This document shows, piece after piece, positions 37,235 through 53,716 of a stretch of 64,000 bases of DNA. The notes beneath the pieces were generated by a model. The model had not been told where the DNA came from. It did not search any database and saw nothing but the letters and a program-made list of their open reading frames with translations. The position numbers and the translations under genes are program-made. The stretch comes from Escherichia phage JLBYU50. The stretch's first letter is position 1. Every line of letters starts with the position of its first letter. The stretch is from the sequence record OK272470.1, one strand, 5' to 3'.

Positions 37235-39394
37235 ATGAAACAGGCTATTTTTACTGTAACTCGAAATACGAGAGTAAATGCCAGTTCATTCAGCTATAAG
37301 ACCGTCGATGGAACGGCGGTCGCTGGTAGAGATTATGTAGCTAAACAGGGAACAGTAACGTTCCCTTCTGATGCAGATTCTGCTACTGTAGTGGTTGATG
37401 TATATGAACGTCCGGCAAACTCTTTAGATCTTTATTTTACTCTTGAGATTACTAGCATAAGTCAAAATAACATGATGATCAACGAAGAAATTCGTTGTGT
37501 TATTACGACTGATCAATCGAATACAACCCCACTAACTTGGCCTGTTGTGAAGTCTAGAATGTTTGATCCTAAGTTTTGGACAATAGATTCTCAAGCAACA
37601 GAGAGCTGTTCTATTATCTCTAATGGTGATTCTTTCACAGCAAGAATGGTTAATAGGACAGTGGCTGGTCTTGCTGGGATTATTTGGTCAACTTACGATA
37701 AATATGATCACAAAGGATTAGGCTACCAAGAACATTCTGACTTAAGTAAAGAGAAACTTTGGTTTAAAATGGAACTTAGTCAAGGTGTTCCTGGATTAAA
37801 AGAAGAAAAATTATTGCCATCCTTAACAGTGACACTGAAGGATGAAACAGTTCATTATGTATCTCTAAACTTTTATGCAGAAGAAGTTTCAGAGGACGGT
37901 AAAACAGCAACAATAAAATTAGATTTCTCAAATTTAAAATCTGGGCCAGAAAATGATATTGTTGTTGACACTACACAGATAGATAATATGTTCTTCTCCT
38001 TGATCTCCACAAGGTATCAAGAAATTGAAGATGTTATACCTGTAGACAATATGGATCTTTCCTTTAAGTTTACCATACTAGAGCCTGATACTGGTTACAG
38101 TATGATGAATATGGGTAATTTAAATGTTCCGGCGCACACCATAAGAATGTGTACATCTTATGATGATATGTATAACCTAACCCCAGAGCGAGTTATTTCT
38201 AACACCTATAGATTAGGTTATAGAGATATGATTAACCATTATAATGGTATGTCACACTATTATCAATTTAGTTGGGATGCTGGATCTAATAAATGGGCTT
38301 TGAACAGAACAGAATATTTAAACCCAGCAACAGAAGCCTGGTTTGACAATTTCCACGCTAATGCAAAAGCTATGGGCTACACAGTAATGAACTCCTTAAG
38401 TTTTGAACTTATGAGTACAGTGTGTCCTGTAGAATGGGTACAACATGCTTGGAATGATGATCTTGCTGCTACAGGTTATGAGCCACCAAGTTATGTTTTA
38501 TCTCCTTCAATTGATGAAGGGATGAATTATTTACAAGGTGTAATAAATAAGATAGCTTCTATATCCGCTGCCAATGATCTTCCTGTTATTATTCAGGTTG
38601 GTGAACCGTGGTGGTGGTATAACACAGCTACCAATCTACCGTGTATTTATGATTATACAACCAAAGTTGCATTTAATAATGAAACTGGATTATATGCACA
38701 AGATGTTGGTACAGTTAAGAATTATAAAACTGGTACACCATATGATGAATATTATGCATTCCTATCTAAAACATTAGGACTACGTGTTGCTAAGTTTGCA
38801 ACGGATACTAGATTAGCATATCCTGGAGCGAAAGTTACATTGTTACCATTTGTGCCATCCATTTTGGGTAATGGTATGATGGAGTTTGTTAACTTCCCTA
38901 AAGATTATTATATCCCAGAAAACTTTGACTTTTATTGTTCAGAATGTTATGACTGGTTGTTGGAAGGCAAGATGGAAAGATCTTTCGACGCTATCACAAT
39001 ACCTAATGAGCAACTAGGTTTTAGTTACGATAAGATACATTATCTTGCAGGGTTTGTTCCAGATGCAACTCTAGCACCATTATATGGCTTTGATCCTGAA
39101 TCAAACTATAGAACATATTTGTGGAAAATGATTATAGGCAATATTGTATTGAATGACCAGAAGTTTGTTGGTTTATATCAATACATATGGGCTTACCCAC
39201 AAATAATGCATGATTCAATAACTGTTCTTAATTCAAAATCCCAAGTGTTTTATATGGGTAATGTGCCTTTGAATTGCTACTTGCAAGATATCACTCTTAA
39301 ACAGGTAAATGTTGAGATTGCCACTATAAGTGGAATTACATTAGCCACTAAATCTGGAGAAGATTTAGTAACAACACAAAAATTTTATATATAG
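37235..39394 (+). CDS. tail/baseplate protein (719 aa)
   Basis: ORF track; AAGGAA RBS. Confidence 0.45.
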   Translation: MKQAIFTVTRNTRVNASSFSYKTVDGTAVAGRDYVAKQGTVTFPSDADSATVVVDVYERPANSLDLYFTLEITSISQNNMMINEEIRCVITTDQSNTTPLTWPVVKSRMFDPKFWTIDSQATESCSIISNGDSFTARMVNRTVAGLAGIIWSTYDKYDHKGLGYQEHSDLSKEKLWFKMELSQGVPGLKEEKLLPSLTVTLKDETVHYVSLNFYAEEVSEDGKTATIKLDFSNLKSGPENDIVVDTTQIDNMFFSLISTRYQEIEDVIPVDNMDLSFKFTILEPDTGYSMMNMGNLNVPAHTIRMCTSYDDMYNLTPERVISNTYRLGYRDMINHYNGMSHYYQFSWDAGSNKWALNRTEYLNPATEAWFDNFHANAKAMGYTVMNSLSFELMSTVCPVEWVQHAWNDDLAATGYEPPSYVLSPSIDEGMNYLQGVINKIASISAANDLPVIIQVGEPWWWYNTATNLPCIYDYTTKVAFNNETGLYAQDVGTVKNYKTGTPYDEYYAFLSKTLGLRVAKFATDTRLAYPGAKVTLLPFVPSILGNGMMEFVNFPKDYYIPENFDFYCSECYDWLLEGKMERSFDAITIPNEQLGFSYDKIHYLAGFVPDATLAPLYGFDPESNYRTYLWKMIIGNIVLNDQKFVGLYQYIWAYPQIMHDSITVLNSKSQVFYMGNVPLNCYLQDITLKQVNVEIATISGITLATKSGEDLVTTQKFYI

Positions 39395-39402
39395 GAGTAA
39401 AA

Positions 39403-41976
39403 ATGTCAACTACAATTACTAATTTACCCGAAACATCAAAAGTTAATGGTTCTGATTACCTGGTTTTAGACCAACCTGATAAGACTGTTAAAAGCACAGT
39501 TTCCAACTTTCTTGCTGACACTGGGGTGGTTTTAGCCACCCAGTTGAAAGATACAGATGGAGCAGATTTAATACAATCCTCAAATGGTAATACTGTTCAG
39601 GAAGAGTTGAATAACAATCTTCTTAATGATCGTGAACAGTGGCATCGTAGTCTTGCTGAGGCAGGGTTAACCCTTGTCAACGGTAGCTTTGAAGAAGGGG
39701 CTACAGTAAACAATAAGACGGATGCTGTTTGGCATATTGCTGGTGGGCAGTGCTATACGTGGGGTGGTGAATTTCCTAAAACAGTAGCTGCTGGTTCAAC
39801 TCCAGAAACATCTGGTGGCATTGGTCTTGGTGCATGGGTTAGTGTTGTGGATATGTCATTAAGGGATAATCTTTCAAACTCCAGTAATGATAATTACGGT
39901 GATGCGCTGGTAGCAGTTAAGCAGCCGTATACTACCGCAATAAGTAGAACGCAGCATGATAAAAATGCTGATGTACTTGATATTTCGGATTTTGGTGTAG
40001 ACATAACTGGTGCTTCTGATGAGGGTAGTAAGTTACAACAGATATTTAATGAGTTGGCCGCAGCAGGCAAGACTATTCGTATGCGCGGTTCTGTAAAGAC
40101 TACTATTAACCTAGATATAAGGTGTAACGTGCTGTTTGAGCAGGGTTTCAAACTAACTGGCGTGAAACTAGAAACTGGACCTCAGACTTACATTAATATT
40201 TTTAATCGTAATGTAGATGTAAGCCATATTATCCTAGATGGTATTGTTATGTGTTTCTACCCCGTAAGTTCCACTACTACTGTTAGAAACAAAAGATGTA
40301 TTACGTTTACATCCAACACGTTAGAAGATTCATGTGTTCAGGTGGGCGGTAATAACCTATCTGTACGTAACGTGTTAATTTCTAACAATACTTTTAAGAA
40401 CTCTGGGTCACGTATTCCAACAGCAATTCGCCTAACTAATGTCTCAAATATTGAGGTGAGTTTTAACCTTATCCATGAGTATGGTAGACCTATTTACCAA
40501 ACAGCAACCCGCTCTTTCTCCAACTACAATGTCAATATACACCACAATAATATGGTTTGTGAGTATGGTATAACTCTTGCGGGTACTACTGCTTTTAGGG
40601 TTAGTAAGTTCACAATTGCTGACAATGACATTGTTTGCGAGGTAAGAAATACAGCAACAGGTGGTCGGGATGGTATTGATGTAGTTTATGGTACTAGTGG
40701 TTTGATTACTAACAATAACATAAGGACAAACGGAAGAAGCCTTAGACTGTCTAATACTAAGGTAGATGTACTGTTTAACGATATGATATCCAGCGCAACC
40801 AGTGCATTCTCAGTATTAATGGCGAGTTGTTATGAGTCATCATTTGTTGGTAACACTGTTTTCAATAACTCAACTGCTGAAATTATTGTTGTACATGTGC
40901 AGGATGAAGCTGGTGGGCTTTACCGGAGTAATAACATTCGTGTGGAATCTAATACAATCAAGGGATTTGGTAGGCTGATTCGGGTATTAGATACAAAGGA
41001 TTATGTTGTCATCAATAACAGATTAATCAGAACATCAAACAATGGTAATGCAGTTATTATTGCGGATGGGACTAGTGACAGAGGCCAGGTGCATAGCAAT
41101 GTGGTAGTTGGTCCTGCTGGAGTGGTAGTATCTGATATAGGCGGAACCAACAATGCAACAACCCCTGCTGATACACTGCTGAGTGTTGCAGCTAACAGCA
41201 AGACCATAACAGCCGTGGCGAATGGATTAGTTGATCCAGACTTGAATAATTCGAAGGCATTCATCTTCAATGTTCAGGTGTCTGATGTTCAACTATTACG
41301 TGCGGTATCTTCTACAGGCTCAGGAAATGCTAAAACCGTATCTCAGTTCATGTCGGGTATAACTGGGGCAACTCTGGCATGGAATGGTACTGCCTTCCTA
41401 TCAGAGATGTCTGGACCACCAGATATATTTGTGAATGGTGTACTTCAAGATTCCTATGGTGCAGAAGACTATGTGTTCTACAGATCAGGGATGCTTATTG
41501 ATTCCCAGAATAAACTCAGTGTTAGAGACTTCCAGTGTATTGGGGATGGGGATACCATAAACGATGGGACTGGTAATATGACCCTTCGTAATATGGCAGC
41601 AGCACAATCGGCTGAGGGCGCTATTCACAGTGCTTTCTTCCGTGCTCCTCTTGTTATGAATGGCTCAGTGTATGACCCTACAGTAACAGGTATTGCATCT
41701 TCAGATTTGTTTAGCACAGCTCTAGATCCAAGAATGGCTATAGGACAAAAAGCTGATGGAACCTACGTTATTATTTGTGTTAATGGCAGAAACGCAGATG
41801 GGGTAAGTCCAGGCTGCACTATGCAGCAGCTAGCTTCTAAGTTTGTAGCCCTTGGTTGTATCAACGCAATGAATTTGGATGGCGGCGGTTCAGCTACTCT
41901 TTGGTATAACGGTGCTATCATTAATGACCCGGCGGATGGAAGTGAACGCCCTGTTTACCATTGTATGTATGTGTAA
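39403..41976 (+). CDS. tailspike-like protein: beta-helix body plus C-terminal NLDGGGS domain
   Basis: N/V/I-rich repetitive beta-helix-like middle region; C-terminal ...CINAMNLDGGGSATLWYNGAIINDPADGSERPVYHCM resembles the phosphodiester-glycosidase (NAGPA/DUF2233-type) signature. Confidence 0.55.
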   Translation: MSTTITNLPETSKVNGSDYLVLDQPDKTVKSTVSNFLADTGVVLATQLKDTDGADLIQSSNGNTVQEELNNNLLNDREQWHRSLAEAGLTLVNGSFEEGATVNNKTDAVWHIAGGQCYTWGGEFPKTVAAGSTPETSGGIGLGAWVSVVDMSLRDNLSNSSNDNYGDALVAVKQPYTTAISRTQHDKNADVLDISDFGVDITGASDEGSKLQQIFNELAAAGKTIRMRGSVKTTINLDIRCNVLFEQGFKLTGVKLETGPQTYINIFNRNVDVSHIILDGIVMCFYPVSSTTTVRNKRCITFTSNTLEDSCVQVGGNNLSVRNVLISNNTFKNSGSRIPTAIRLTNVSNIEVSFNLIHEYGRPIYQTATRSFSNYNVNIHHNNMVCEYGITLAGTTAFRVSKFTIADNDIVCEVRNTATGGRDGIDVVYGTSGLITNNNIRTNGRSLRLSNTKVDVLFNDMISSATSAFSVLMASCYESSFVGNTVFNNSTAEIIVVHVQDEAGGLYRSNNIRVESNTIKGFGRLIRVLDTKDYVVINNRLIRTSNNGNAVIIADGTSDRGQVHSNVVVGPAGVVVSDIGGTNNATTPADTLLSVAANSKTITAVANGLVDPDLNNSKAFIFNVQVSDVQLLRAVSSTGSGNAKTVSQFMSGITGATLAWNGTAFLSEMSGPPDIFVNGVLQDSYGAEDYVFYRSGMLIDSQNKLSVRDFQCIGDGDTINDGTGNMTLRNMAAAQSAEGAIHSAFFRAPLVMNGSVYDPTVTGIASSDLFSTALDPRMAIGQKADGTYVIICVNGRNADGVSPGCTMQQLASKFVALGCINAMNLDGGGSATLWYNGAIINDPADGSERPVYHCMYV

Positions 41977-46098: not shown

Positions 46099-46440
46099 AT
46101 GGAGCTAACAGAAGTATGGGATATCGCTAAAGAGGCGATTATCCCTCTTATTGGCGTAATCTGGGTGGTCTTCAAACAGAAGATAGATGATATGGCAAGT
46201 GATTTGGATAAAATGGAAGACAAATACCGCGAACTAGAAAAGAAGTTGGTGTTTGTTGAATCCACTTATGCTACCAAAGCGGAACTTGCTCAAATGCTTA
46301 ACCAGATCAACTCTACATTAATGGCAAATAACACTGCCTTAGAACAGAAGATTGAAAAAATAATGGATTTAAAAAATGCTCCTGTTCAATTAATGTTAGA
46401 GGAGATTACGAAGCGCACACAAAGTAAGGACAAAAATTAA
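46099..46440 (+). CDS. small protein with N-terminal hydrophobic helix and coiled coil (113 aa)
   Basis: ORF track; IIPLIGVIWVVF segment then heptad-rich region. Confidence 0.4.
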   Translation: MELTEVWDIAKEAIIPLIGVIWVVFKQKIDDMASDLDKMEDKYRELEKKLVFVESTYATKAELAQMLNQINSTLMANNTALEQKIEKIMDLKNAPVQLMLEEITKRTQSKDKN

Positions 46441-48854
46441 TGGCGAATTTTCCAACATATCCTGCTACGACACTAGAACAAGGTGTTGATCTGGTTATAT
46501 TCTCGTCTAACCAGATGCATGATGTTATTAATGGGGATGCTACAGCAACTGTAGAAACCGAAACAGGTTTAATACCTACACTGCGTAAAGCACTTGTTGA
46601 TAACTTCTTCTTTAAGAGTCCTGTTGCTTGGTCAGCAGGATCAACTGAAACTGTATTTAACCAGTTACGTTATTTTGAAAACGGTATCTTGAGTGGGTAC
46701 TATTATGCCCCATCTGCCACTACTGCGAACCCTGTACCTATGCAGGGAACACCTGTAGGAGACAGTAACTGGACTCTGTACGCTCTTAAAACTGAACAGT
46801 TAGCTTCAGATGTGTATCCTTGGTATTTTAAAGGTGCTACAGGATATGAAACAGAAATCAGTCCTCCTTATATCTTTGATAATGCTATTGTCACCATTAA
46901 CGGTGTAATTCAGATTCAAGGTGAAGCATTTACTATCAAAGATAGTAAAATTATTCTGGCAGAACCATTAGGTTTAGATCCGTCTACTGGTCTACCTAAC
47001 AAATTGTTTGCTTTTATTGGTAAAACAACAGCCTCTACTTCTTACGTAGAGAAAAACCTTTTGTCATCCACCACTGGTGCAGCAATGGTTGGTCTTCCAT
47101 CTGGAGGCAACCTGTTACAAGCTCAATACTTTGTAACGCCTGAGCAGTTTGGTGCAATTGGTGATGGAGTTACCGATGATACTCAAGCAATTTTAAAAAC
47201 CATTACTTTCGCTAACACGAATAACATTCAAGTACGTGCAGATAAGAATTATAGATTCACAAGCTCAATTGCTATGTCTGGTATTCGTTGGTATGGTGGT
47301 ACATTCACTGGTAACGGTGGAACAATGATTTCTACTGTGTCCTGTTGGATGGAAAACGTTCGCTTTGAAAAATGTTATGTTAAGATGTTAGGTGGTGATT
47401 GCCGATTCTATCGTAATATCTTCTCCAATGCAACATCTACAGCAGCATTCTTAATGCAAGCAATGACAAGTGAAGGTACGTTGGACTTCAGTTACAACGA
47501 AATGTATGGTTGTAAATATGCGATCCTGCAACAAGGTACTGGAGAAGTAATGACCTACGGGCGTTACTCTAACAACTATATTCACGATATTAAAGGTGAT
47601 GCTATTGAACTTAACGTAGTTCAAAAACACTACACTGAAGGTTTGATTATCGAGAATAACCACATTGCTAACGTAGATGCTTCTGGACAAGGGGCAAACT
47701 GGGGTATTGGTATTGGTGTAGCAGGTAGTGGCCCATATGGTGTTGATGTTCCTGATTCACAATATGTACGTAATTTCAGTATCGTTGGGAATAGGGTTTA
47801 CAATTGCCGTCAATGTTTACACGTTGAAATGGGTAAAAACTTCACAATACGTGATAATGAAGTTTATCCTAACACAGCAGTTTCAACAGGTACAGGTTTA
47901 ACTACTTGTGGTGTTGCATTATACGGATGCCAAGATTTTGAAGTTGATGGTTTAACTGGTTATCTGCTTAATGATCCATCTGTTTCAACACGCATGGTCT
48001 TTATTGACTGGGGTGTTAACAGTGGAAGATATGCGGGGCCACCAATTAACTTTACAATTAAGAATTTGGATATTCCAGAATCTTCAATTGAGATTGCAAC
48101 ATCTGGATCAGATGACTGGGAAAACTCTACAATTGTTAGTAATATCAATTGTAATGTTTTTAAATGGCGTGGGCTACCATCTAGCTCTACCTTTAATAAT
48201 ATTCGTTGCCGTAGTATTGACTTTATTGGTCAACACGGAAGCGGAGAAGGAAGTGGTGGCGGTTTCTATACTCGCAGCCAATTCACGTATATGAAGTGGG
48301 TAGGATGTACAGCACTTAGCGGAGATGAAACAACAGTTTCTTTTGCTAAAATCTACACTGATCGTTGCGATCAGGTTGGAAATAACTTTGGTGTTCCAAC
48401 TGCTGTTGATGGTACAGGTCATCGTGGGCCAGTTTTAACTACTATTTCTGAACAATATTTTACAGCTTATGATGAATTCCCAGGTGGGCGTGAATTCCCT
48501 ACTGGAACAGTTATTCATTGTGCAAGCGGTAAAAAACATGTTGTTACAGTAGGTGGTGCTTTCTTTAGTGCCAACGAGAAAATAAAAGCAACTGTTACAG
48601 GTCAAACCTATCTACAGTCTAATGCTTTAAACTGGGCTAGTAATGGCTACGCTAAAGCAGCAGGTACTAAGATTGTTATTCCAGGTGCAGGTGCAAATGG
48701 CGGCGATCTTGTGACAACTATAGCACGTGCTACATATGTGACAAATAGTTTGTACACAATAGATATTGCAGATCCAATTGTAACACCTACAGCAGAGAAT
48801 ACACAAATTAAAGCTCTGAACCCTGTTACTTTTGTTACTGTCAATAATGCTTAA
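46440..48854 (+). CDS. tailspike with pectate-lyase-type beta-helix (depolymerase-like)
   Basis: FGAIGDGVTDDTQAI near 47147-47190, hallmark N-terminal cap of pectate-lyase-fold tailspikes; 804 aa. Confidence 0.65.
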   Translation: MANFPTYPATTLEQGVDLVIFSSNQMHDVINGDATATVETETGLIPTLRKALVDNFFFKSPVAWSAGSTETVFNQLRYFENGILSGYYYAPSATTANPVPMQGTPVGDSNWTLYALKTEQLASDVYPWYFKGATGYETEISPPYIFDNAIVTINGVIQIQGEAFTIKDSKIILAEPLGLDPSTGLPNKLFAFIGKTTASTSYVEKNLLSSTTGAAMVGLPSGGNLLQAQYFVTPEQFGAIGDGVTDDTQAILKTITFANTNNIQVRADKNYRFTSSIAMSGIRWYGGTFTGNGGTMISTVSCWMENVRFEKCYVKMLGGDCRFYRNIFSNATSTAAFLMQAMTSEGTLDFSYNEMYGCKYAILQQGTGEVMTYGRYSNNYIHDIKGDAIELNVVQKHYTEGLIIENNHIANVDASGQGANWGIGIGVAGSGPYGVDVPDSQYVRNFSIVGNRVYNCRQCLHVEMGKNFTIRDNEVYPNTAVSTGTGLTTCGVALYGCQDFEVDGLTGYLLNDPSVSTRMVFIDWGVNSGRYAGPPINFTIKNLDIPESSIEIATSGSDDWENSTIVSNINCNVFKWRGLPSSSTFNNIRCRSIDFIGQHGSGEGSGGGFYTRSQFTYMKWVGCTALSGDETTVSFAKIYTDRCDQVGNNFGVPTAVDGTGHRGPVLTTISEQYFTAYDEFPGGREFPTGTVIHCASGKKHVVTVGGAFFSANEKIKATVTGQTYLQSNALNWASNGYAKAAGTKIVIPGAGANGGDLVTTIARATYVTNSLYTIDIADPIVTPTAENTQIKALNPVTFVTVNNA

Positions 48855-48857
48855 TTA

Positions 48858-48882
48858 AAAAGGGGCGAAAGCCCCTTTATAA
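48858..48882 (+). terminator. rho-independent terminator-like hairpin
   Basis: AAAGGGGC-GAAA-GCCCCTTT followed by ATAAAAGG. Confidence 0.5.
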
Positions 48883-48895
48883 AAGGAGTAGTAAA

Positions 48896-50857
48896 GTGAT
48901 TTTAACACGTCCAAATAGTGCCATTGCAGACATGGTAGAGTCTCGCTATAGAAAGCGTAGAAGTTTTGCAAGTGGTTTTACCTTAAGAGATGCTCGTGAA
49001 GCATTGCTCTTTGAAGCTGACGGTAACTACTATCAGTGGAAAGGTTCTCTACCTAAAGTTGTACCTGCTAACTCTACTCCTACATCTACTGGAGGGATTT
49101 CAGATACAGCTTGGAAAAATGTGGGTAATGCAGATGACATTGCTCAAATAGAATCAGAATTAGATGCTATTGAAGCTGAAATTGAAGATCTTAGAGAATC
49201 CATTCCAGAAGCTGGTAAATCAGCTTACCAGATTGCCGTAGACAATGGTTTCCAAGGTACTGAGACAGACTGGTTGGCTTCTTTAAAAGGTGATCCAGGT
49301 GCTCCATTAAAGCTGCTAGGGACGCTATCTAATACCAACCAATTACCTACAACTGGAAACAATGCAGGAGATGCATGGATTGTAGGCGAGAATATGTATG
49401 CTTGGGATGGTACTGCTTGGAGAAAAGTAAACTCACAGGGGCCAGAAGGTAAATCAGCTTATCAAGTTTGGCTTGCAGCAGGAAACCAAGGTACAGAACT
49501 AGATTATCTTGCTTCAATTAAAGGTGATAAAGGGGAACCTGGCCCAGAGGGGCCACAAGGTGTGCCAGGTAACAATGCTAATGGTTTTGATTACCAAGGT
49601 GCAGCTAATTCCGTTTCAGATCTTCCTTCTGCATCTCCTGGAAACACATCTCAAGCATGGAGTATTGGTACATATCTATACGTGTCAAACGGTGTAGAAT
49701 GGATCAATATGGGCGCTATAGTGGGGCCAAAAGGAGATAAAGGCGACAAAGGAGATAAGGGTAACACTGGTGATTCTGCTTATCAAGTCTGGTTAAATGC
49801 TGGTAACGTTGGTACTATTGACGAATATATTGCCTCTCTGAAAGGAGAAAAAGGTGATAAGGGAGACAAGGGTGATCAAGGTGAGCAGGGTATACAAGGC
49901 TTGACGGGGCCAACTGGTGCAGGGTTGACAATTATTGATATTCTGACTGACACTTCTGAACTACCACAAACTGGAGAAGATGGTGATGGTTATCTGATCA
50001 ATAATGAACTTTGGGTTTGGTTGCAAGGAGCCACACAGTGGACAAATGTTGGTCGTTTAGCTGGTACTCCAATCACTGCAAAAGGACACGTTGCGTCTGC
50101 AAGTGCACTTCCTCCTACAGCCAATTACGGTGATGCTTATCTGACGGAAGATACAGGTCATCTTTACATTTACACCTATGATGAACAAACTCAAACTGCT
50201 GAATATGTAGATATGGGTAGTTTGAAAGGTGATAAGGGTGAAAAAGGTGACGCTGGTACTAACGGTACAGACGGTGCAACTTGGATTGTTAAAACAACAG
50301 ATCCAATCTCTAGTGATGGTAAACAAGGTGATTATGCCTTTAATATCTCCACTGGCGAGGTGTTCTTAAAAACATCTGCAACTGCCTGGACTTCTCAAGG
50401 TACACTGCCTAGCATCACAGATGCACCTAGTGACGGTAAAATTTATGCTCGTAAAGATGGAGCATGGGAAGAACTCACTAGTTCTGTAGATGGTCAAGAT
50501 ATAGTTCCAACAAAAGTAACAGCTAATTTTATAGAGGTTACAGCATACACCAACAACTCTGTTACAGGTGACTGGACACCTCCAGGAACACATAACATGA
50601 ATGTGTTGAATCTTACTGGTAACGCTACTATAAAAGCATGGCCTGGTGTCGAAGATAGCACAAAACCTAAACCATTCTCTGCAATAGTTTATCTTATCCA
50701 AGATGCCACTGGGGGTCATACTGTTACTTTAGATCCATCTTACAAAGTAATTGGTTCTAGTGATATTAATACAGATCCTAACGGAGTAACAATACTACAA
50801 CTAACATATTGTGGTATTGGCGATTACGTGGATGCTATTGTTGCTAAACGCACATAA
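48896..50857 (+). CDS. tail fibre with collagen-like G-X-Y tracts and internal triplication
   Basis: GTG start after AAAGGAG; GDKGEPGPEGPQGVPG, GPKGDKGDKGDKGNTGDS, KGEKGDKGDKGDQGEQGIQGLTGPTGAG, GDKGEKGDAGTNGTDGA; three copies of SAYQ.W..AGN.GT..DY.AS.KG. Confidence 0.6.
   Translation: MILTRPNSAIADMVESRYRKRRSFASGFTLRDAREALLFEADGNYYQWKGSLPKVVPANSTPTSTGGISDTAWKNVGNADDIAQIESELDAIEAEIEDLRESIPEAGKSAYQIAVDNGFQGTETDWLASLKGDPGAPLKLLGTLSNTNQLPTTGNNAGDAWIVGENMYAWDGTAWRKVNSQGPEGKSAYQVWLAAGNQGTELDYLASIKGDKGEPGPEGPQGVPGNNANGFDYQGAANSVSDLPSASPGNTSQAWSIGTYLYVSNGVEWINMGAIVGPKGDKGDKGDKGNTGDSAYQVWLNAGNVGTIDEYIASLKGEKGDKGDKGDQGEQGIQGLTGPTGAGLTIIDILTDTSELPQTGEDGDGYLINNELWVWLQGATQWTNVGRLAGTPITAKGHVASASALPPTANYGDAYLTEDTGHLYIYTYDEQTQTAEYVDMGSLKGDKGEKGDAGTNGTDGATWIVKTTDPISSDGKQGDYAFNISTGEVFLKTSATAWTSQGTLPSITDAPSDGKIYARKDGAWEELTSSVDGQDIVPTKVTANFIEVTAYTNNSVTGDWTPPGTHNMNVLNLTGNATIKAWPGVEDSTKPKPFSAIVYLIQDATGGHTVTLDPSYKVIGSSDINTDPNGVTILQLTYCGIGDYVDAIVAKRT
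49520..50280 (+). repeat. collagen-like triplet-repeat coding tracts (GGT/GAT/AAR-rich)
   Basis: repetitive ggtgataarggngan units at about 49522-49570, 49724-49775, 49840-49925 and 50228-50280. Confidence 0.6.
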
Positions 50858-50860
50858 TCA

Positions 50861-50886
50861 AAGCCCCTTCGGGGGCTTATTGTTTA
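50861..50886 (+). terminator. rho-independent terminator
   Basis: AAGCCCC-TTCG-GGGGCTT followed by ATTGTTT. Confidence 0.55.
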
Positions 50887-50896
50887 AGGAGATTAA

Positions 50897-53716
50897 ATGT
50901 ATCCTATTCCTTTATTTATGTCAACAACATCAGCTTCAGTAGTAACAGCTACATCTATAACCACTTCCTCTATTGGTATTGCAATAGTTGGTAGTAAAAA
51001 GCAACTGACATACACAGTTTCACCGGAAGATGGTGCGTTATTTGATATAGCTTTTTCATCTTCAGATAATACCAAAATGGTTATAGATAATAGTGGTATG
51101 ATGGAGTTTGTTGCCGAAGGTGGTTTTGATGCAATAATGACAGCTAAAAATAATTTAGGTGCTGTCTTAACTGATCAATCTGGTGGTTATGCTTCAGAAT
51201 TAAGCGTGTACACTGAAAGTCTATCAGCTATGGATGTAGGCACTACTCAACAGTTGGTTGCTACAATCAGTCCAGAAGGTGCTAAAGATCTTCCAGACAT
51301 GGTAATTACGTACACCACAACAGATCCAGAAGTAGCTACTGTAAGCCCTACAGGATTAATAACTGCTCTTAAAGATGGTAATTGCCGTATAGGTTGTACT
51401 GCAACTTATCAAGGAACAGTGGTGGCCTCTGATAGTTCTTATTTAGGTGTTAATGCTATTCCTGTTATTTCTAATGTAACAGCCGTGGCAAACAGCTATG
51501 GAGACGTTCGTGTTGCTTGGGATGTAGCTGATCCGCTAGATGGTGATACTTATACTGTAGAAGTATTAGATTTAAGTAATAATAGTGTTCAGTGGACTAC
51601 AACAACCACGAATACTTACGCTTACTTTGATATCTCTGACTCTATTCCTCTTTATGGGTTTGCTCCAACATACCTTAAAATTAGCGTTAAGAGCACCAAA
51701 GCAGCAGCCGTTATCTTTAATAACTCAATAGCTACAGATGATTCGTTCATTAAAGAAGTTATTGTTTTTGCTGGACAAGATAACGTAAATGCACACTTTA
51801 CAGAACTATCTGGTGCAAATAAAGCAGCAATGAGTAGCACAACAGCCCGTAATGCATATGCTACGCAACGTGGTTTAGCAAATGCTGAAGTTCTTCCGTT
51901 AAATACAGCTTCTGGATCATCAGCAGCAGATAAATATGCTGACGATAAAGCTGGAACAGGTACACCAGACAACTACTGGTATGATCTGGATAACACAGCA
52001 GATGGGCCATGCTTAACTAACTTTATCACTAAAGTCACACCTTATGCAAGTAAGGTTAAAGCCATTATTTGGGGACAAGGTGAAAATGATGCTGTATCAT
52101 CATCTTCAACTGTTGCAGGTAGATACAGTAACACTACACGTTACCATGATGCTACGATAGCTATCTTTGATAAGATGCGTACAATAGTTCCTGCTTCTCA
52201 AGCAAAAATTGTTTGGCAGATCCTGGGACGTTCTTATTTATATGGTGTAGAAGTTAATGGTGTGGATTGGCAGAAGTACAGAAATGTACAAAGAACCATC
52301 TCTACAGCACGTGATGATGTTATCATTGGTTCTTGGGTAGATGGTGCTGAACGTTACAGTGGTTATGTTTATGAAGAAGGTATTGATGGTCGTATCCATT
52401 ATATTTCTTCTGTATACCAAACAGCAGCTACAAAACTTGCTAAATCAGCAGCAGACGGTACAGACCTAACATCAACGTCACCTGTTTGGGTTGATATGGC
52501 TGTTCCAACTGGAGCAACAGCTACTTCCCAATCTAATCAAGATACAATTTTAGTATGGGATGCTCAAGGCTATAGTAAACACTACTTCCGTAATATTAAC
52601 GTCTTAACAGCATCTGTATTAACTGAACAAACGCTTAATACGAACAGCTATACGTTTACCTATGCAGATCAAGTAGAACAATATGGTTTTGCAGCAGGAA
52701 CTACTATATTTGATGTTGCATATTATGATGAAGCAAATGATGTGTTATCTCCTTTAGTACGTTTTAATGTTAACGTTACAGCAGGAACCGTAGAAGATAA
52801 ACCTGTAGTGATGGATTATGATTTAACACAAGAAACTCTTCCATCAGATGTTAAGGTTAATGGTGGGAACTCTTTTGCTCGTGCTTCTGGAGATACACTT
52901 GTAGCCACTAACACCTTGGTTGCTCCGTTGGAGTATGTTGGCACTACCCCTGTAGGTAGACGTGTAACAGCTAACACAGCTACACAAATTTTTGTCAACA
53001 ACGCCTTAACAAGCGCAAGCCCGTGGGTAAAGACCAACTTAACTGTTTCAACTTCATCTGATAAATCTCCGGCTGGAACTACTGCCAATGTATTCAAATT
53101 AACTCCGACTACAACATCTGGTAGTCATATCTTAACTGCAACATATACTAACGCGTACAACATATATGCCGGACGTAACTGGTCTGCCTCTGTTTTCTTG
53201 AAAGCGAACGGGATTACTAAGGCCAAACTAAGATTAAAAGCAGGAACTGAAGTTAATGAGGGTACTTTTGATTTAGCAGCAGGTACATTTACAGGAAGTG
53301 AAGCTAATATTATATCTATGGGTAACGGTTGGTATCGTGCTATTCTGCATAAAACAGGGATAGCCAAACAGTCCTCCATAAGTTTTGAAATAATTGCCTT
53401 GGATGCAACTGGTGCGGAGATTTTCGCTGGGGATGGTACTAGTAACCTTGCAGTTTGGTTGCCACAGCTTGAAGGTGCTCCTACAGGAGAAACATCAAAA
53501 GCTGGAGCGCCTTATGTCTGCACATATCCTGGAAGTTTAGGAGGAGTATCCTTCACTATACCAAGGAACGGACATACTGGTGTGGATGTTTACTATTCCA
53601 ACGGGGACGTTGTTCGTGACGTATTCTCTGGTACGGCATCTACTTGGACAATAAACTACTCCAGCTTGTACGATTGGGGATCAGTCTTTATTACAGGTTT
53701 GAAATATTACGACTAA
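50897..53716 (+). CDS. tail fibre/adhesin with Ig-like (Big_2-type) segment and SGNH/SASA-like esterase-fold domain
   Basis: 939 aa; VGTTQQLVATISPEG...ATVSPTGLITALKDGNCRIGCTATYQG resembles Big_2; VIVFAGQDN (about 51771) and IWGQGENDA (about 52071) resemble sialate-O-acetylesterase blocks I and III. Confidence 0.55.
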   Translation: MYPIPLFMSTTSASVVTATSITTSSIGIAIVGSKKQLTYTVSPEDGALFDIAFSSSDNTKMVIDNSGMMEFVAEGGFDAIMTAKNNLGAVLTDQSGGYASELSVYTESLSAMDVGTTQQLVATISPEGAKDLPDMVITYTTTDPEVATVSPTGLITALKDGNCRIGCTATYQGTVVASDSSYLGVNAIPVISNVTAVANSYGDVRVAWDVADPLDGDTYTVEVLDLSNNSVQWTTTTTNTYAYFDISDSIPLYGFAPTYLKISVKSTKAAAVIFNNSIATDDSFIKEVIVFAGQDNVNAHFTELSGANKAAMSSTTARNAYATQRGLANAEVLPLNTASGSSAADKYADDKAGTGTPDNYWYDLDNTADGPCLTNFITKVTPYASKVKAIIWGQGENDAVSSSSTVAGRYSNTTRYHDATIAIFDKMRTIVPASQAKIVWQILGRSYLYGVEVNGVDWQKYRNVQRTISTARDDVIIGSWVDGAERYSGYVYEEGIDGRIHYISSVYQTAATKLAKSAADGTDLTSTSPVWVDMAVPTGATATSQSNQDTILVWDAQGYSKHYFRNINVLTASVLTEQTLNTNSYTFTYADQVEQYGFAAGTTIFDVAYYDEANDVLSPLVRFNVNVTAGTVEDKPVVMDYDLTQETLPSDVKVNGGNSFARASGDTLVATNTLVAPLEYVGTTPVGRRVTANTATQIFVNNALTSASPWVKTNLTVSTSSDKSPAGTTANVFKLTPTTTSGSHILTATYTNAYNIYAGRNWSASVFLKANGITKAKLRLKAGTEVNEGTFDLAAGTFTGSEANIISMGNGWYRAILHKTGIAKQSSISFEIIALDATGAEIFAGDGTSNLAVWLPQLEGAPTGETSKAGAPYVCTYPGSLGGVSFTIPRNGHTGVDVYYSNGDVVRDVFSGTASTWTINYSSLYDWGSVFITGLKYYD

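What the first reader, a model, noticed from the sequence alone, without database searches (positions are those of the whole stretch)
48896..50857. Collagen-like tail fibre with triplicated internal module
Seen: several G-X-Y runs (for example GPKGDKGDKGDKGNTGDS and KGEKGDKGDKGDQGEQGIQGLTGPTGAG) and three copies of an approximately 27-aa unit SAYQ(V/I)W(L)..GN.GT..DY(L)AS(I/L)KG(D/E)KG, each followed by a Trp/Tyr-rich segment. The repeats are also visible at DNA level. Inference: a modular, recombination-prone fibre whose length could vary by repeat gain or loss.
Basis: seen in the sequence. Interest (0 to 1): 0.45.

Follow-up and report, generated by a model that had tools for sequence, protein, structure and literature searches.

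The report
Segmented collagen-like phage tail fibre
This gene is the already catalogued collagen-containing fibre protein gp151 of phi92-like E. coli phages; its shaft is a string of short collagen segments held between small repeated domains, a common phage design.

Summary
ORF 48896-50857 (+, 653 aa) has four Gly-X-Y runs of 6, 6, 9 and 6 triplets and three copies of a 25-aa 'SAYQ...LASLKG' unit. The Trp/Tyr-rich segments after each unit are a second repeated module, with four clear copies and probably a fifth.

The gene is not new. It is the ortholog of phage phi92 gp151 (97.8% nt) and is 95-99% identical in 55 phage records, where it is annotated as a tail fibre, in BASEL records 'with type I collagen domain'.

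Predicted order: tailspike-type N-terminal domain, coiled coil, the modular shaft, a foldon-like hairpin, then a C-terminal beta-sandwich.

The 45-aa beta module models confidently on its own (pLDDT 95). Its best fold matches include the human collagen XV/XVIII trimerization domains.

'Length varies by repeat gain or loss' is partly right. Orthologs differ almost only by whole Gly-X-Y triplets; two clusters lack whole blocks; distant relatives carry 0-18 and 0-11 copies of the two modules.

'Recombination-prone' is not supported at module level. The copies are 53-63% identical in DNA, and the longest exact repeat (14 nt) equals the codon-shuffled expectation.

Where gp151 sits on the virion and what it binds are still unknown. 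This is an ordinary, known gene with one modestly interesting structural detail.

The parts
48859..48878 (+). Intergenic hairpin (8-bp stem, GAAA loop) between the colanidase gene and the fibre gene, followed by the AAGGAG ribosome-binding site at 48883-48888
   Evidence: Read directly from the sequence. It is not followed by a T run, so it is not a canonical terminator.
48896..50857 (+). Whole gene, 653 aa plus stop; ortholog of phi92 gp151
   Evidence: FR775895.2 89319-91280, 97.8% nt; phrog_15437 matched end to end, E = 0.
48926..49126 (+). N-terminal tailspike-type domain (aa 11-77), the presumed docking or neck domain
49136..49201 (+). Predicted alpha-helix (aa 81-102), probably a short trimeric coiled coil
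   Evidence: AF2 model helix 81-102. The coiled-coil reading is inference.
49217..49291 (+). A module copy 1 (aa 108-132), KSAYQIAVDNGFQGTETDWLASLKG, predicted helix-loop-helix
49307..49429 (+). B module copy 1 (aa 138-178), a small four-stranded beta domain
   Evidence: B-profile E 1.9e-17. The stand-alone AF2 model has pLDDT 95.2.
49451..49525 (+). A module copy 2 (aa 186-210)
49523..49576 (+). Collagen-like run 1 (aa 210-227, 6 triplets)
49583..49717 (+). B module copy 2 (aa 230-274)
   Evidence: E 2.7e-13.
49724..49777 (+). Collagen-like run 2 (aa 277-294, 6 triplets, GPKGDKGDKGDKGNTGDS); 5-11 triplets in orthologs
49772..49846 (+). A module copy 3 (aa 293-317)
49844..49924 (+). Collagen-like run 3 (aa 317-343, 9 triplets)
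   Evidence: best Pfam Collagen stretch 317-341.
49922..50056 (+). B module copy 3 (aa 343-387)
   Evidence: E 9.2e-16.
50072..50221 (+).
   Evidence: E 1.1e-12 with the family profile.
50228..50281 (+). Collagen-like run 4 (aa 445-462, 6 triplets). This is the most length-variable run: 7 triplets in six related phages of the genus and 4-13 in Phapecoctavirus-type orthologs
50282..50410 (+). Probable diverged fifth B-like module (aa 463-505); absent from ortholog cluster P0014
   Evidence: Four-strand pattern in the AF2 model. hhalign against the B profile gives P = 7e-4, in register, probability 26%. Deletion variant seen.
50411..50482 (+). Foldon-like beta-hairpin motif (aa 506-529), ITDAPSDGKIYARKDGAWEELTS
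   Evidence: Alignment to the T4 foldon scores 67 against a shuffle mean of 26.3 (sd 3.9), 0 of 1000 shuffles reaching it. Pfam Fibritin_C 19.4 bits, just under its cut-off of 21. PDB foldon hits. Predicted hairpin 517-526.
50537..50854 (+). C-terminal beta-sandwich domain (about aa 548-653), presumed distal knob; shared with rV5-type fibres
   Evidence: AF2 strands 550-652. phrog_4549 C-terminus, E 1.4e-39. tblastn to Vequintavirus fibre C-termini. Precomputed PF26209 on orthologs.
50861..50878 (+). Hairpin (7-bp stem, TTCG loop) just after the stop codon
   Evidence: The orthologous spot in phAPEC8 is annotated as a putative terminator.

Best explanation
The gene encodes the gp151-type fibre of phi92-like myophages (genus Justusliebigvirus). 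It is most likely a homotrimeric side fibre belonging to the multi-fibre adsorption apparatus at the baseplate.

Inferred working model:
1. A short, invariant N-terminal peptide plus a tailspike-type N-terminal domain anchor the trimer to the tail-fibre scaffold.
2. A 22-residue helix starts the shaft.
3. The shaft is 'beads on a string', built from three helix-loop-helix A modules, four (probably five) 45-residue B modules, and four short Lys/Asp/Glu-rich, proline-poor collagen-like segments of 18-27 residues.
4. The B modules have the same predicted fold as the collagen XV/XVIII trimerization domain. Together with a foldon-like hairpin they are proposed to act as in-line trimerization and registration nodes. 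These nodes would let very short collagen triple helices fold and would double as hinge points.
5. A C-terminal beta-sandwich of about 105 residues is the distal end and the likely ligand-binding part.

Shaft length changes in evolution mainly by gain or loss of single 9-bp Gly-X-Y units, and rarely by in-frame loss of whole blocks.

Shown here: the sequence anatomy, orthology, the domain and fold predictions, and the natural length variants.

Inferred: trimer formation, triple-helix formation, the role of the nodes, attachment to the tail, and ligand binding.
For: Identity and context
- 97.8% nt identity to phi92 gene 151, and 95-99% in 55 records.
- Full-length match to phrog_15437 'tail fiber protein'.
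- The gene sits between the colanidase tailspike and a Big_2/SASA-like tail protein, downstream of the baseplate, short-fibre and chaperone genes.

Anchor
- The first 15 residues are nearly invariant across two genera.

Collagen
- Four Gly-X-Y runs, far beyond chance.
- Asp fills 10 of 27 X positions and Lys 10 of 27 Y positions.
- All indels between the four aligned orthologs are whole triplets inside these runs.
- A prophage collagen-like side-fibre protein has been shown experimentally to form a triple helix nucleated by flanking trimerization domains (PMC3368898).

Modules
- A x3 and B x4 by profile search.
- B alone models at pLDDT 95.2, pTM 0.73.
- In 108 homologues, 81% of 776 collagen runs are followed within 12 residues by an A or B module, and 85% are preceded by one.
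- The foldon-like motif aligns to the T4 foldon with a score about 10 sd above shuffles.

Length variants.
Against: - No experiment places gp151 on the virion. AlphaFold3 models of gp151 did not fit the unassigned fibre II density of phi92 (PMC13450770).
- The structure tool predicts monomers only. Trimerization and triple-helix formation are therefore untested, and the Gly-X-Y runs have pLDDT below 50 in the model.
- Runs of 6-9 triplets without hydroxyproline are short for a stable triple helix.
- The fifth B copy and the link between B and the foldon are weak (hhalign probabilities 26% and 13%).
- No receptor is known. The protein is nearly invariant across the genus, which is unusual for a host-range determinant.
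Confidence: 0.72

Rival explanations
1. gp151 is a structural arm or adaptor of a branched fibre, not a receptor binder. In this reading a conserved flexible stalk carries or spaces other, enzymatic tailspikes. Its C-terminal domain would be a protein-protein connector.
For: - The gene is 95-99% conserved in 55 genomes. By contrast, the neighbouring enzymatic spike at 39403-41976 is matched over its full length only in phage PHB05, at 87%, and only 25 of 60 records cover gp152.
- The C-terminal roughly 175 aa recur at the end of a different, glycosidase-annotated fibre at the syntenic place in Vequintavirus.
- phrog_4549 joins a colanidase-like N-terminal region to this C-terminus in a single profile.
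- phi92 fibre I is described as an L-shaped arm bearing the endosialidase (PMC13450770).
Against: - The C-terminal beta-sandwich follows a foldon-like cap, as distal knobs usually do.
- Relatives such as Citrobacter phage Tr1 and P0016 swap the C-terminal part while keeping the shaft. That is the pattern expected for a specificity domain.
- No docking motif for another spike was found.
Confidence: 0.15
2. It is a head fibre or capsid decoration rather than a tail fibre.
For: - Distant A/B/collagen proteins of Acinetobacter phage ABPH49 and Pectobacterium phage PcCB7V are encoded two genes after the major capsid gene.
- The B profile matches PhiKZ capsid protein gp184.
Against: - Those distant proteins lack the N-terminal PF18668 domain, which in solved structures belongs to tailspikes.
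- The gene lies in the middle of the tail-fibre cluster with conserved synteny across three genera.
Confidence: 0.08
3. The Gly-X-Y runs are only flexible low-complexity linkers and never form a collagen triple helix. The fibre would be held together solely by its globular and beta modules.
For: - The runs are short (18-27 residues) and have only 6 prolines in 54 X/Y positions.
- The AF2 monomer model gives them pLDDT below 50.
Against: - Gly occupies every third position without exception in all four runs.
- Orthologs change these runs only by whole triplets.
- Lys-Gly-Asp and Lys-Gly-Glu steps are known stabilisers of Hyp-free triple helices (my own recall of the Brodsky/Persikov peptide work, not checked here).
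- The runs are bracketed by predicted trimerization nodes.
- Low monomer pLDDT is expected for any obligate trimer.
Confidence: 0.05

Closest known systems
Phage phi92 gp151 and its orthologs in Justusliebigvirus and Phapecoctavirus (phrog_15437; BASEL annotation 'lateral tail fiber protein with type I collagen domain')
   Same: This is the same gene. It is 97.8% identical in DNA to phi92 gene 151 and up to 99.4% to other isolates, with the same length and the same neighbours. Phapecoctavirus orthologs (about 60% aa identity) keep the same order of modules.
   Different: Only point differences, and in six related phages of the genus (eight records) one extra Gly-X-Y triplet. Published work lists gp151 as a putative fibre without placing it or describing its internal modules (PMC13450770).
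Prophage collagen-like side tail fibre proteins of E. coli O157:H7 (EPclA-D; Ghosh et al. 2012, PMC3368898)
   Same: These are phage fibre proteins in which a Gly-X-Y region forms a real triple helix nucleated by flanking trimerization domains, with a modular make-up shared among phages.
   Different: EPclA has one long collagen domain (about 111 residues) between PfN/PCoil and PfC domains. The present protein has four short runs interleaved with A and B modules, a different N-terminal domain (PF18668) and a foldon-like cap. No EPcl-type domain was reported by Pfam.
CBA120 tailspikes TSP1-4, G7C gp63.1 and K1F-type endosialidase N-terminal regions (Pfam PF18668 Tail_spike_N)
   Same: The N-terminal domain is shared by sequence and by predicted fold.
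   Different: Those proteins continue into enzymatic beta-helix or sialidase bodies. This one continues into a non-enzymatic collagen and module shaft.
Trimerization domain of human multiplexin collagens XV and XVIII (PDB 3n3f, 9bnb)
   Different: Sequence identity is 14-16% and there is no profile-level match. In the phage the domain is repeated in line within the shaft (up to 15 copies per protein in relatives) rather than being a single C-terminal unit. Trimerization of the phage module is untested.
T4 fibritin foldon (Pfam PF07921 Fibritin_C)
   Same: The motif APxDGxxYxRKDGxW is present at aa 506-529 and is predicted to form a hairpin.
   Different: It scores just below the Pfam cut-off. 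It is internal, followed by a roughly 120-residue domain, rather than being the C-terminal end of the protein.
Pseudomonas phage Pa223 capsid spike gp52 (PDB 9ny6) and the JBD30 baseplate DUF2793 protein (PDB 8rk3)
   Same: Weak fold and sequence similarity to the B-module and foldon part of the shaft.
   Different: They have different N-terminal attachment domains and different C-terminal knobs, and neither has collagen runs in its solved part. Pa223 gp52 sits on the capsid (bioRxiv 10.1101/2025.06.11.659172).

Membership tests
phi92 gp151 orthologous group (phrog_15437) | Full-length sequence match | tested here: met
   phrog_15437 matched 1-653 to 1-656 of 656, E = 0; 97.8% nt identity to phi92 gene 151.
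phi92 gp151 orthologous group (phrog_15437) | Conserved gene neighbourhood (colanidase upstream, Big_2-containing tail protein downstream) | tested here: met
phi92 gp151 orthologous group (phrog_15437) | Presence in the virion as a tail fibre | not testable with these tools
   The published cryo-EM could not assign gp151 to a density (PMC13450770). The 2012 proteomics paper is not in the held library.
Collagen-like (Gly-X-Y) proteins, Pfam PF01391 | Uninterrupted Gly-X-Y repeats scoring above the family threshold | tested here: met
   32.5 bits against a cut-off of 27.2, three stretches; four runs of 6-9 triplets; shuffle control.
Collagen-like (Gly-X-Y) proteins, Pfam PF01391 | Register kept in evolution (indels in whole triplets) | tested here: met
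   All indels between the four aligned orthologs are multiples of 3 residues inside the runs; triplet counts vary between 4 and 13.
Collagen-like (Gly-X-Y) proteins, Pfam PF01391 | Formation of a trimeric triple helix | not testable with these tools
   Only monomer prediction is available; the runs have pLDDT below 50.
Collagen-like (Gly-X-Y) proteins, Pfam PF01391 | Adjacent trimerization or nucleation domain | tested here: inconclusive
   A foldon-like motif and B modules with the collagen XV/XVIII trimerization fold flank the runs. Their oligomeric state is only inferred.
PF18668-type tailspikes (CBA120 TSP, G7C gp63.1/gp66) | Tail_spike_N domain | tested here: met
PF18668-type tailspikes (CBA120 TSP, G7C gp63.1/gp66) | Enzymatic beta-helix or other depolymerase body | tested here: not met
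   No such domain was found by Pfam, PHROGs or fold search; residues 80-530 are coiled coil, A and B modules and collagen. The protein shares the anchor domain but is not a tailspike.
T4 fibritin foldon (PF07921) | C-terminal foldon sequence motif above the family threshold | tested here: inconclusive
   19.4 bits against a cut-off of 21. The pairwise score is about 10 sd above shuffles. The motif is internal rather than terminal.
Multiplexin (collagen XV/XVIII) trimerization domain | Fold | tested here: met
Multiplexin (collagen XV/XVIII) trimerization domain | Detectable sequence homology | tested here: not met
EPclA-type prophage collagen-like side fibres | PfN / PCoil / PfC domains around one long collagen domain | tested here: not met
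   Pfam reports only Tail_spike_N, Collagen and Fibritin_C; the architecture is different (one search compared with PMC3368898).

The most novel reading that the evidence does not exclude
The 45-residue B module is a viral counterpart of the metazoan collagen XV/XVIII trimerization domain. It is found in at least 8257 protein clusters, with up to 15 copies per protein. In this reading it is an autonomous trimerizing unit used in line, many times per chain, to nucleate and clamp very short, hydroxyproline-free collagen triple helices. Together with the A hairpin and the foldon-like motif, it would form a general construction kit for phage head and tail fibres of adjustable length. No paper in the searched library makes this link.
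Probability: 0.3. Interest if true: 0.55.

Novelty: already known. Interest (0 to 1): 0.3.

Why it matters
phi92-like phages are studied and used because their many co-expressed fibres give an unusually broad host range. Which gene makes which fibre is still unsettled, and gp151 is one of the unplaced candidates. A clear domain map gives concrete constructs for localization and binding experiments: anchor, node-and-collagen shaft, foldon-like cap and distal beta-sandwich.

The map also shows which parts tolerate change. Triplet number varies, and some blocks can be lost, which is useful for engineering fibre length.

If the B module really is a compact trimerization unit that sits next to collagen, it could be of practical use as a fusion tag for mini-collagens and trimeric antigens, alongside the foldon and the collagen XVIII domain. 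As a genome finding, however, the gene is ordinary and already annotated.

Tried and rejected
- Self-BLASTP of the protein returned only the identity hit. I replaced it with segment-wise Smith-Waterman alignment against shuffles.
- No Pfam family covers the A or B module. A gives only a sub-threshold DUF2934 match (E 0.049). NCBIfam gives only low-scoring collagen-adhesin matches, far below their cut-offs.
- The A-module profile against PDB sequences found only chance matches to designed ankyrin repeats, so no solved structure for A was found by sequence.
- The idea that aa 463-505 is a fifth B copy, and that the foldon-like motif is a shortened B, gave only weak profile-profile support (probabilities 26% and 13%; A6 against A7 0.6%). 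Both are kept as 'probable' and 'speculative' respectively.
- A DNA-level recombination substrate was rejected. The longest exact repeat, 14 nt, is no longer than in codon shuffles.
- No other ORF in the 64-kb window carries A or B modules.
- Literature: the 2012 phi92 paper is not held. No supplements are held for the 2026 phi92 structure paper. The BME3 and Wecvirus papers say nothing about the collagen fibre. The receptor-screen preprint assigns the NGR glycan to gp142, not gp151.
Full report
**1. What is at the coordinates**

The ORF list gives one long open frame at exactly 48896..50857 on the + strand: GTG start, 653 aa. An AAGGAG ribosome-binding site lies 7 nt upstream. A stable hairpin (8-bp stem, GAAA loop, 48859-48878) separates the gene from the preceding one. 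A second hairpin (TTCG loop, 50861-50878) follows the stop codon.

**2. Check of the observation**

- There are four uninterrupted Gly-X-Y runs, at aa 210-227, 277-294, 317-343 and 445-462, of 6, 6, 9 and 6 triplets.
- In 5000 shuffles of the protein, only 7 contained even one run of at least 6 triplets, against 4 observed.
- Pfam Collagen is above its threshold: 32.5 bits against 27.2.
- The runs are proline-poor and rich in Asp at X and Lys at Y, 10 of 27 each.
- The 'SAYQ' unit, here called the A module, occurs at aa 108-132, 186-210 and 293-317.
- The three larger units align with each other with z = 12-20 against shuffled controls.
- At the DNA level the repeat is detectable but old. There are three 47-nt copies at 66-70% identity and 9-bp periodicity in the Gly-X-Y runs. 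The A modules are only 53-63% identical in DNA. The longest exact repeat in the gene, 14 nt, is what codon-shuffled versions give (mean 11.2, maximum 15).

**3.

The Trp/Tyr-rich stretches are a second repeat family, here called the B module.

- A profile iterated over 120 homologues finds four copies in this protein: 138-178, 230-274, 343-387 and 393-442 (E 1e-12 to 1e-17). The consensus is GLNIKGTLASVSDLPATGNEVGDAYLVGDNLYVWDGTAWVNLGP.
- Residues 463-505 have the same four-strand pattern in the structure model. Their profile-profile match is weak but in register (P = 7e-4, probability 26%). This is a probable fifth copy.
- Residues 506-529 (ITDAPSDGKIYARKDGAWEELTS) resemble the T4 fibritin foldon. 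The alignment score is 67 against a shuffle mean of 26.3 (sd 3.9), with 0 of 1000 shuffles reaching it. Pfam Fibritin_C scores 19.4 bits, just under its cut-off of 21. Foldon chains in the PDB are also hit.

**4. The two ends**

- The same domain occurs in another receptor-binding protein of the window, at 39403-41976.
- The C-terminal part of about 105 residues is predicted as a beta-sandwich.
- That C-terminal part is shared with the C-termini of rV5-type fibres (phrog_4549; tblastn), including at the syntenic position in Vequintavirus.

**5. Structure predictions**

The full-length monomer model has mean pLDDT 70.

| Region | Prediction |
|---|---|
| N-terminal domain | confident |
| aa 81-102 | helix |
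| each A module | helix-loop-helix |
| each B module | four-stranded unit |
| Gly-X-Y runs | pLDDT below 50, as expected for a chain that needs partners |

- These are followed by podophage nozzle proteins, PhiKZ gp184, the JBD30 DUF2793 protein and several Acinetobacter phage tailspikes.

The B profile also finds PhiKZ gp184 and the JBD30 protein by sequence. The A module has no solved relative by sequence and only a sub-threshold DUF2934 match.

**6. Identity of the gene**

- megablast finds the gene at full length in 55 phage records at 95-99% identity, including phi92 gene 151 (97.8%).
- The annotations read 'tail fiber protein' and, in the BASEL phages, 'lateral tail fiber protein with type I collagen domain'.
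- The window is therefore from a Justusliebigvirus (phi92-like myophage).
- The neighbours are the colanic-acid-degrading tailspike (gp150 type) upstream and a Big_2/SASA-like tail protein downstream. The baseplate, short-fibre and chaperone genes lie before them.
- Virion position and ligand are thus still open questions.

**7. Does length vary by repeat gain or loss?**

- Within the genus there are two length classes, 1962 nt and 1971 nt. The longer one is found in six phages (eight records). It has one extra triplet in run 4.
- In Phapecoctavirus-type orthologs (about 60% aa identity), the order 'A B A c B c A c B B c' is unchanged.
- In those orthologs run 2 has 5-11 triplets, run 3 has 8-10 and run 4 has 4-13. 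All indels in the alignment are whole triplets inside the runs.
- Two clusters show larger in-frame losses. P0018 (phage vB_EcoM_EP57, 512 aa) lacks everything from the end of A3 to the end of run 4. P0014 (622 aa) lacks the 463-505 module. Neither was verified against reads.
- Relatives that share the N-terminal two thirds lose similarity near aa 460-462 or 498-516, that is, at run 4 or at the foldon-like motif, and then carry other C-terminal parts.
- Across 121 proteins, A occurs 0-18 times and B 0-11 times, in many orders.
- Of 776 collagen runs, 81% are followed within 12 residues by an A or B module, and 85% are preceded by one.
- A scan of 1.84 billion cluster representatives finds the B module in 8257 clusters, with up to 15 copies per protein.
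- In this window only this gene has A or B modules.

**8. Interpretation**

The best-supported reading is a homotrimeric, tail-associated fibre. Its shaft is a chain of small trimerization nodes (B, the foldon-like hairpin and probably A) joined by very short, charge-stabilised collagen segments. Its distal beta-sandwich is the likely binding end.

A phage precedent for real triple-helix formation nucleated by flanking domains exists in the EPclA side-fibre protein (PMC3368898). At about 0.29 nm per residue, as used in that paper, the 81 collagen residues would contribute about 23 nm. Variation of run 4 between 4 and 13 triplets would change the length by up to about 8 nm. Both figures are my estimates.

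The gene is as conserved across the genus as the colanidase. The spike at 39403-41976 is almost unique and gp152 is partly variable. This pattern points to a conserved ligand or a structural role.

The rivals are a structural arm without a ligand, a head fibre, and Gly-X-Y runs acting as mere linkers. They are set out in the structured fields with their refuting results.

**9. Verdict**

The protein is a collagen-like fibre and its length varies, but mostly triplet by triplet. The three A units are fixed, and the internal repeats are too diverged in DNA to be a recombination substrate.
- The feature is already known and annotated.
- The only part that may be new is the resemblance of the B module to the collagen XV/XVIII trimerization domain. 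No paper in the searched library mentions it. It rests on predicted structure alone.

Noticed in passing
window 39403-41976 (+): An 857-aa receptor-binding protein with a Tail_spike_N domain at aa 92-149 and a C-terminal NAGPA phosphodiester-glycosidase domain. It sits in the slot that holds the endosialidase gp143 in phi92. Its full length is matched only in phage PHB05, at 87% nt. All other relatives share just the first 445 nt or so, making this a rare specificity allele.
   Followed up: partly
window 37235-39394 (+): A 719-aa protein with Calx-beta plus the N4 gp65-like non-contractile tail sheath domains (NCTSP_N and TIM barrel). It looks like the phi92 gp142-type fibre protein that a 2026 preprint identifies as the RBP for the NGR glycan; I did not test the orthology.
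   Followed up: no
window 48859-48878 and 50861-50878: Two GC-rich hairpins with stable tetraloops (GAAA and TTCG) bracket the fibre gene. The first is not followed by a T run. They may be transcript-stabilising or attenuating elements rather than full terminators.
   Followed up: no
GenBank MG065639, MG065645, MG065656, MG065689 (hits H127-H130): Four records named 'Campylobacter phage' (host given as C. jejuni) carry this gene at 97.7% identity and have E. coli phi92-like genome sizes. The host label is probably wrong, or the phages were contaminants.
   Followed up: no
L005 1450-4332 (Acinetobacter phage ABPH49) and L006 1765-5046 (Pectobacterium phage PcCB7V): Large proteins of 960 and 1093 aa, built from the same A, B and collagen elements, are encoded two genes downstream of the major capsid gene. 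This suggests the same construction kit is used for head fibres.
   Followed up: partly
Proteins P0018 (phage vB_EcoM_EP57, 512 aa) and P0014 (622 aa): Ortholog clusters with in-frame loss of whole shaft blocks: run 3 + B3 + B4 + run 4 in P0018, and the 463-505 module in P0014. If real, they show that the shaft tolerates large deletions. They could also be assembly artefacts.
   Followed up: partly
window 50897-53716 (+): The downstream 939-aa tail protein has two Big_2 domains and a weak SASA (sialate O-acetylesterase-like) match. Only 25 of 60 related records cover at least 80% of it, so its C-terminal part is variable.
   Followed up: partly
window 46440-48854 (+) and PHROG phrog_4549: A single rV5-type fibre profile (869 positions) matches the N-terminal region of the colanidase (aa 9-116) and the C-terminal domain of the collagen fibre (aa 526-653). 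This hints that the two adjacent genes correspond to parts of one fibre protein in other phages.
   Followed up: no
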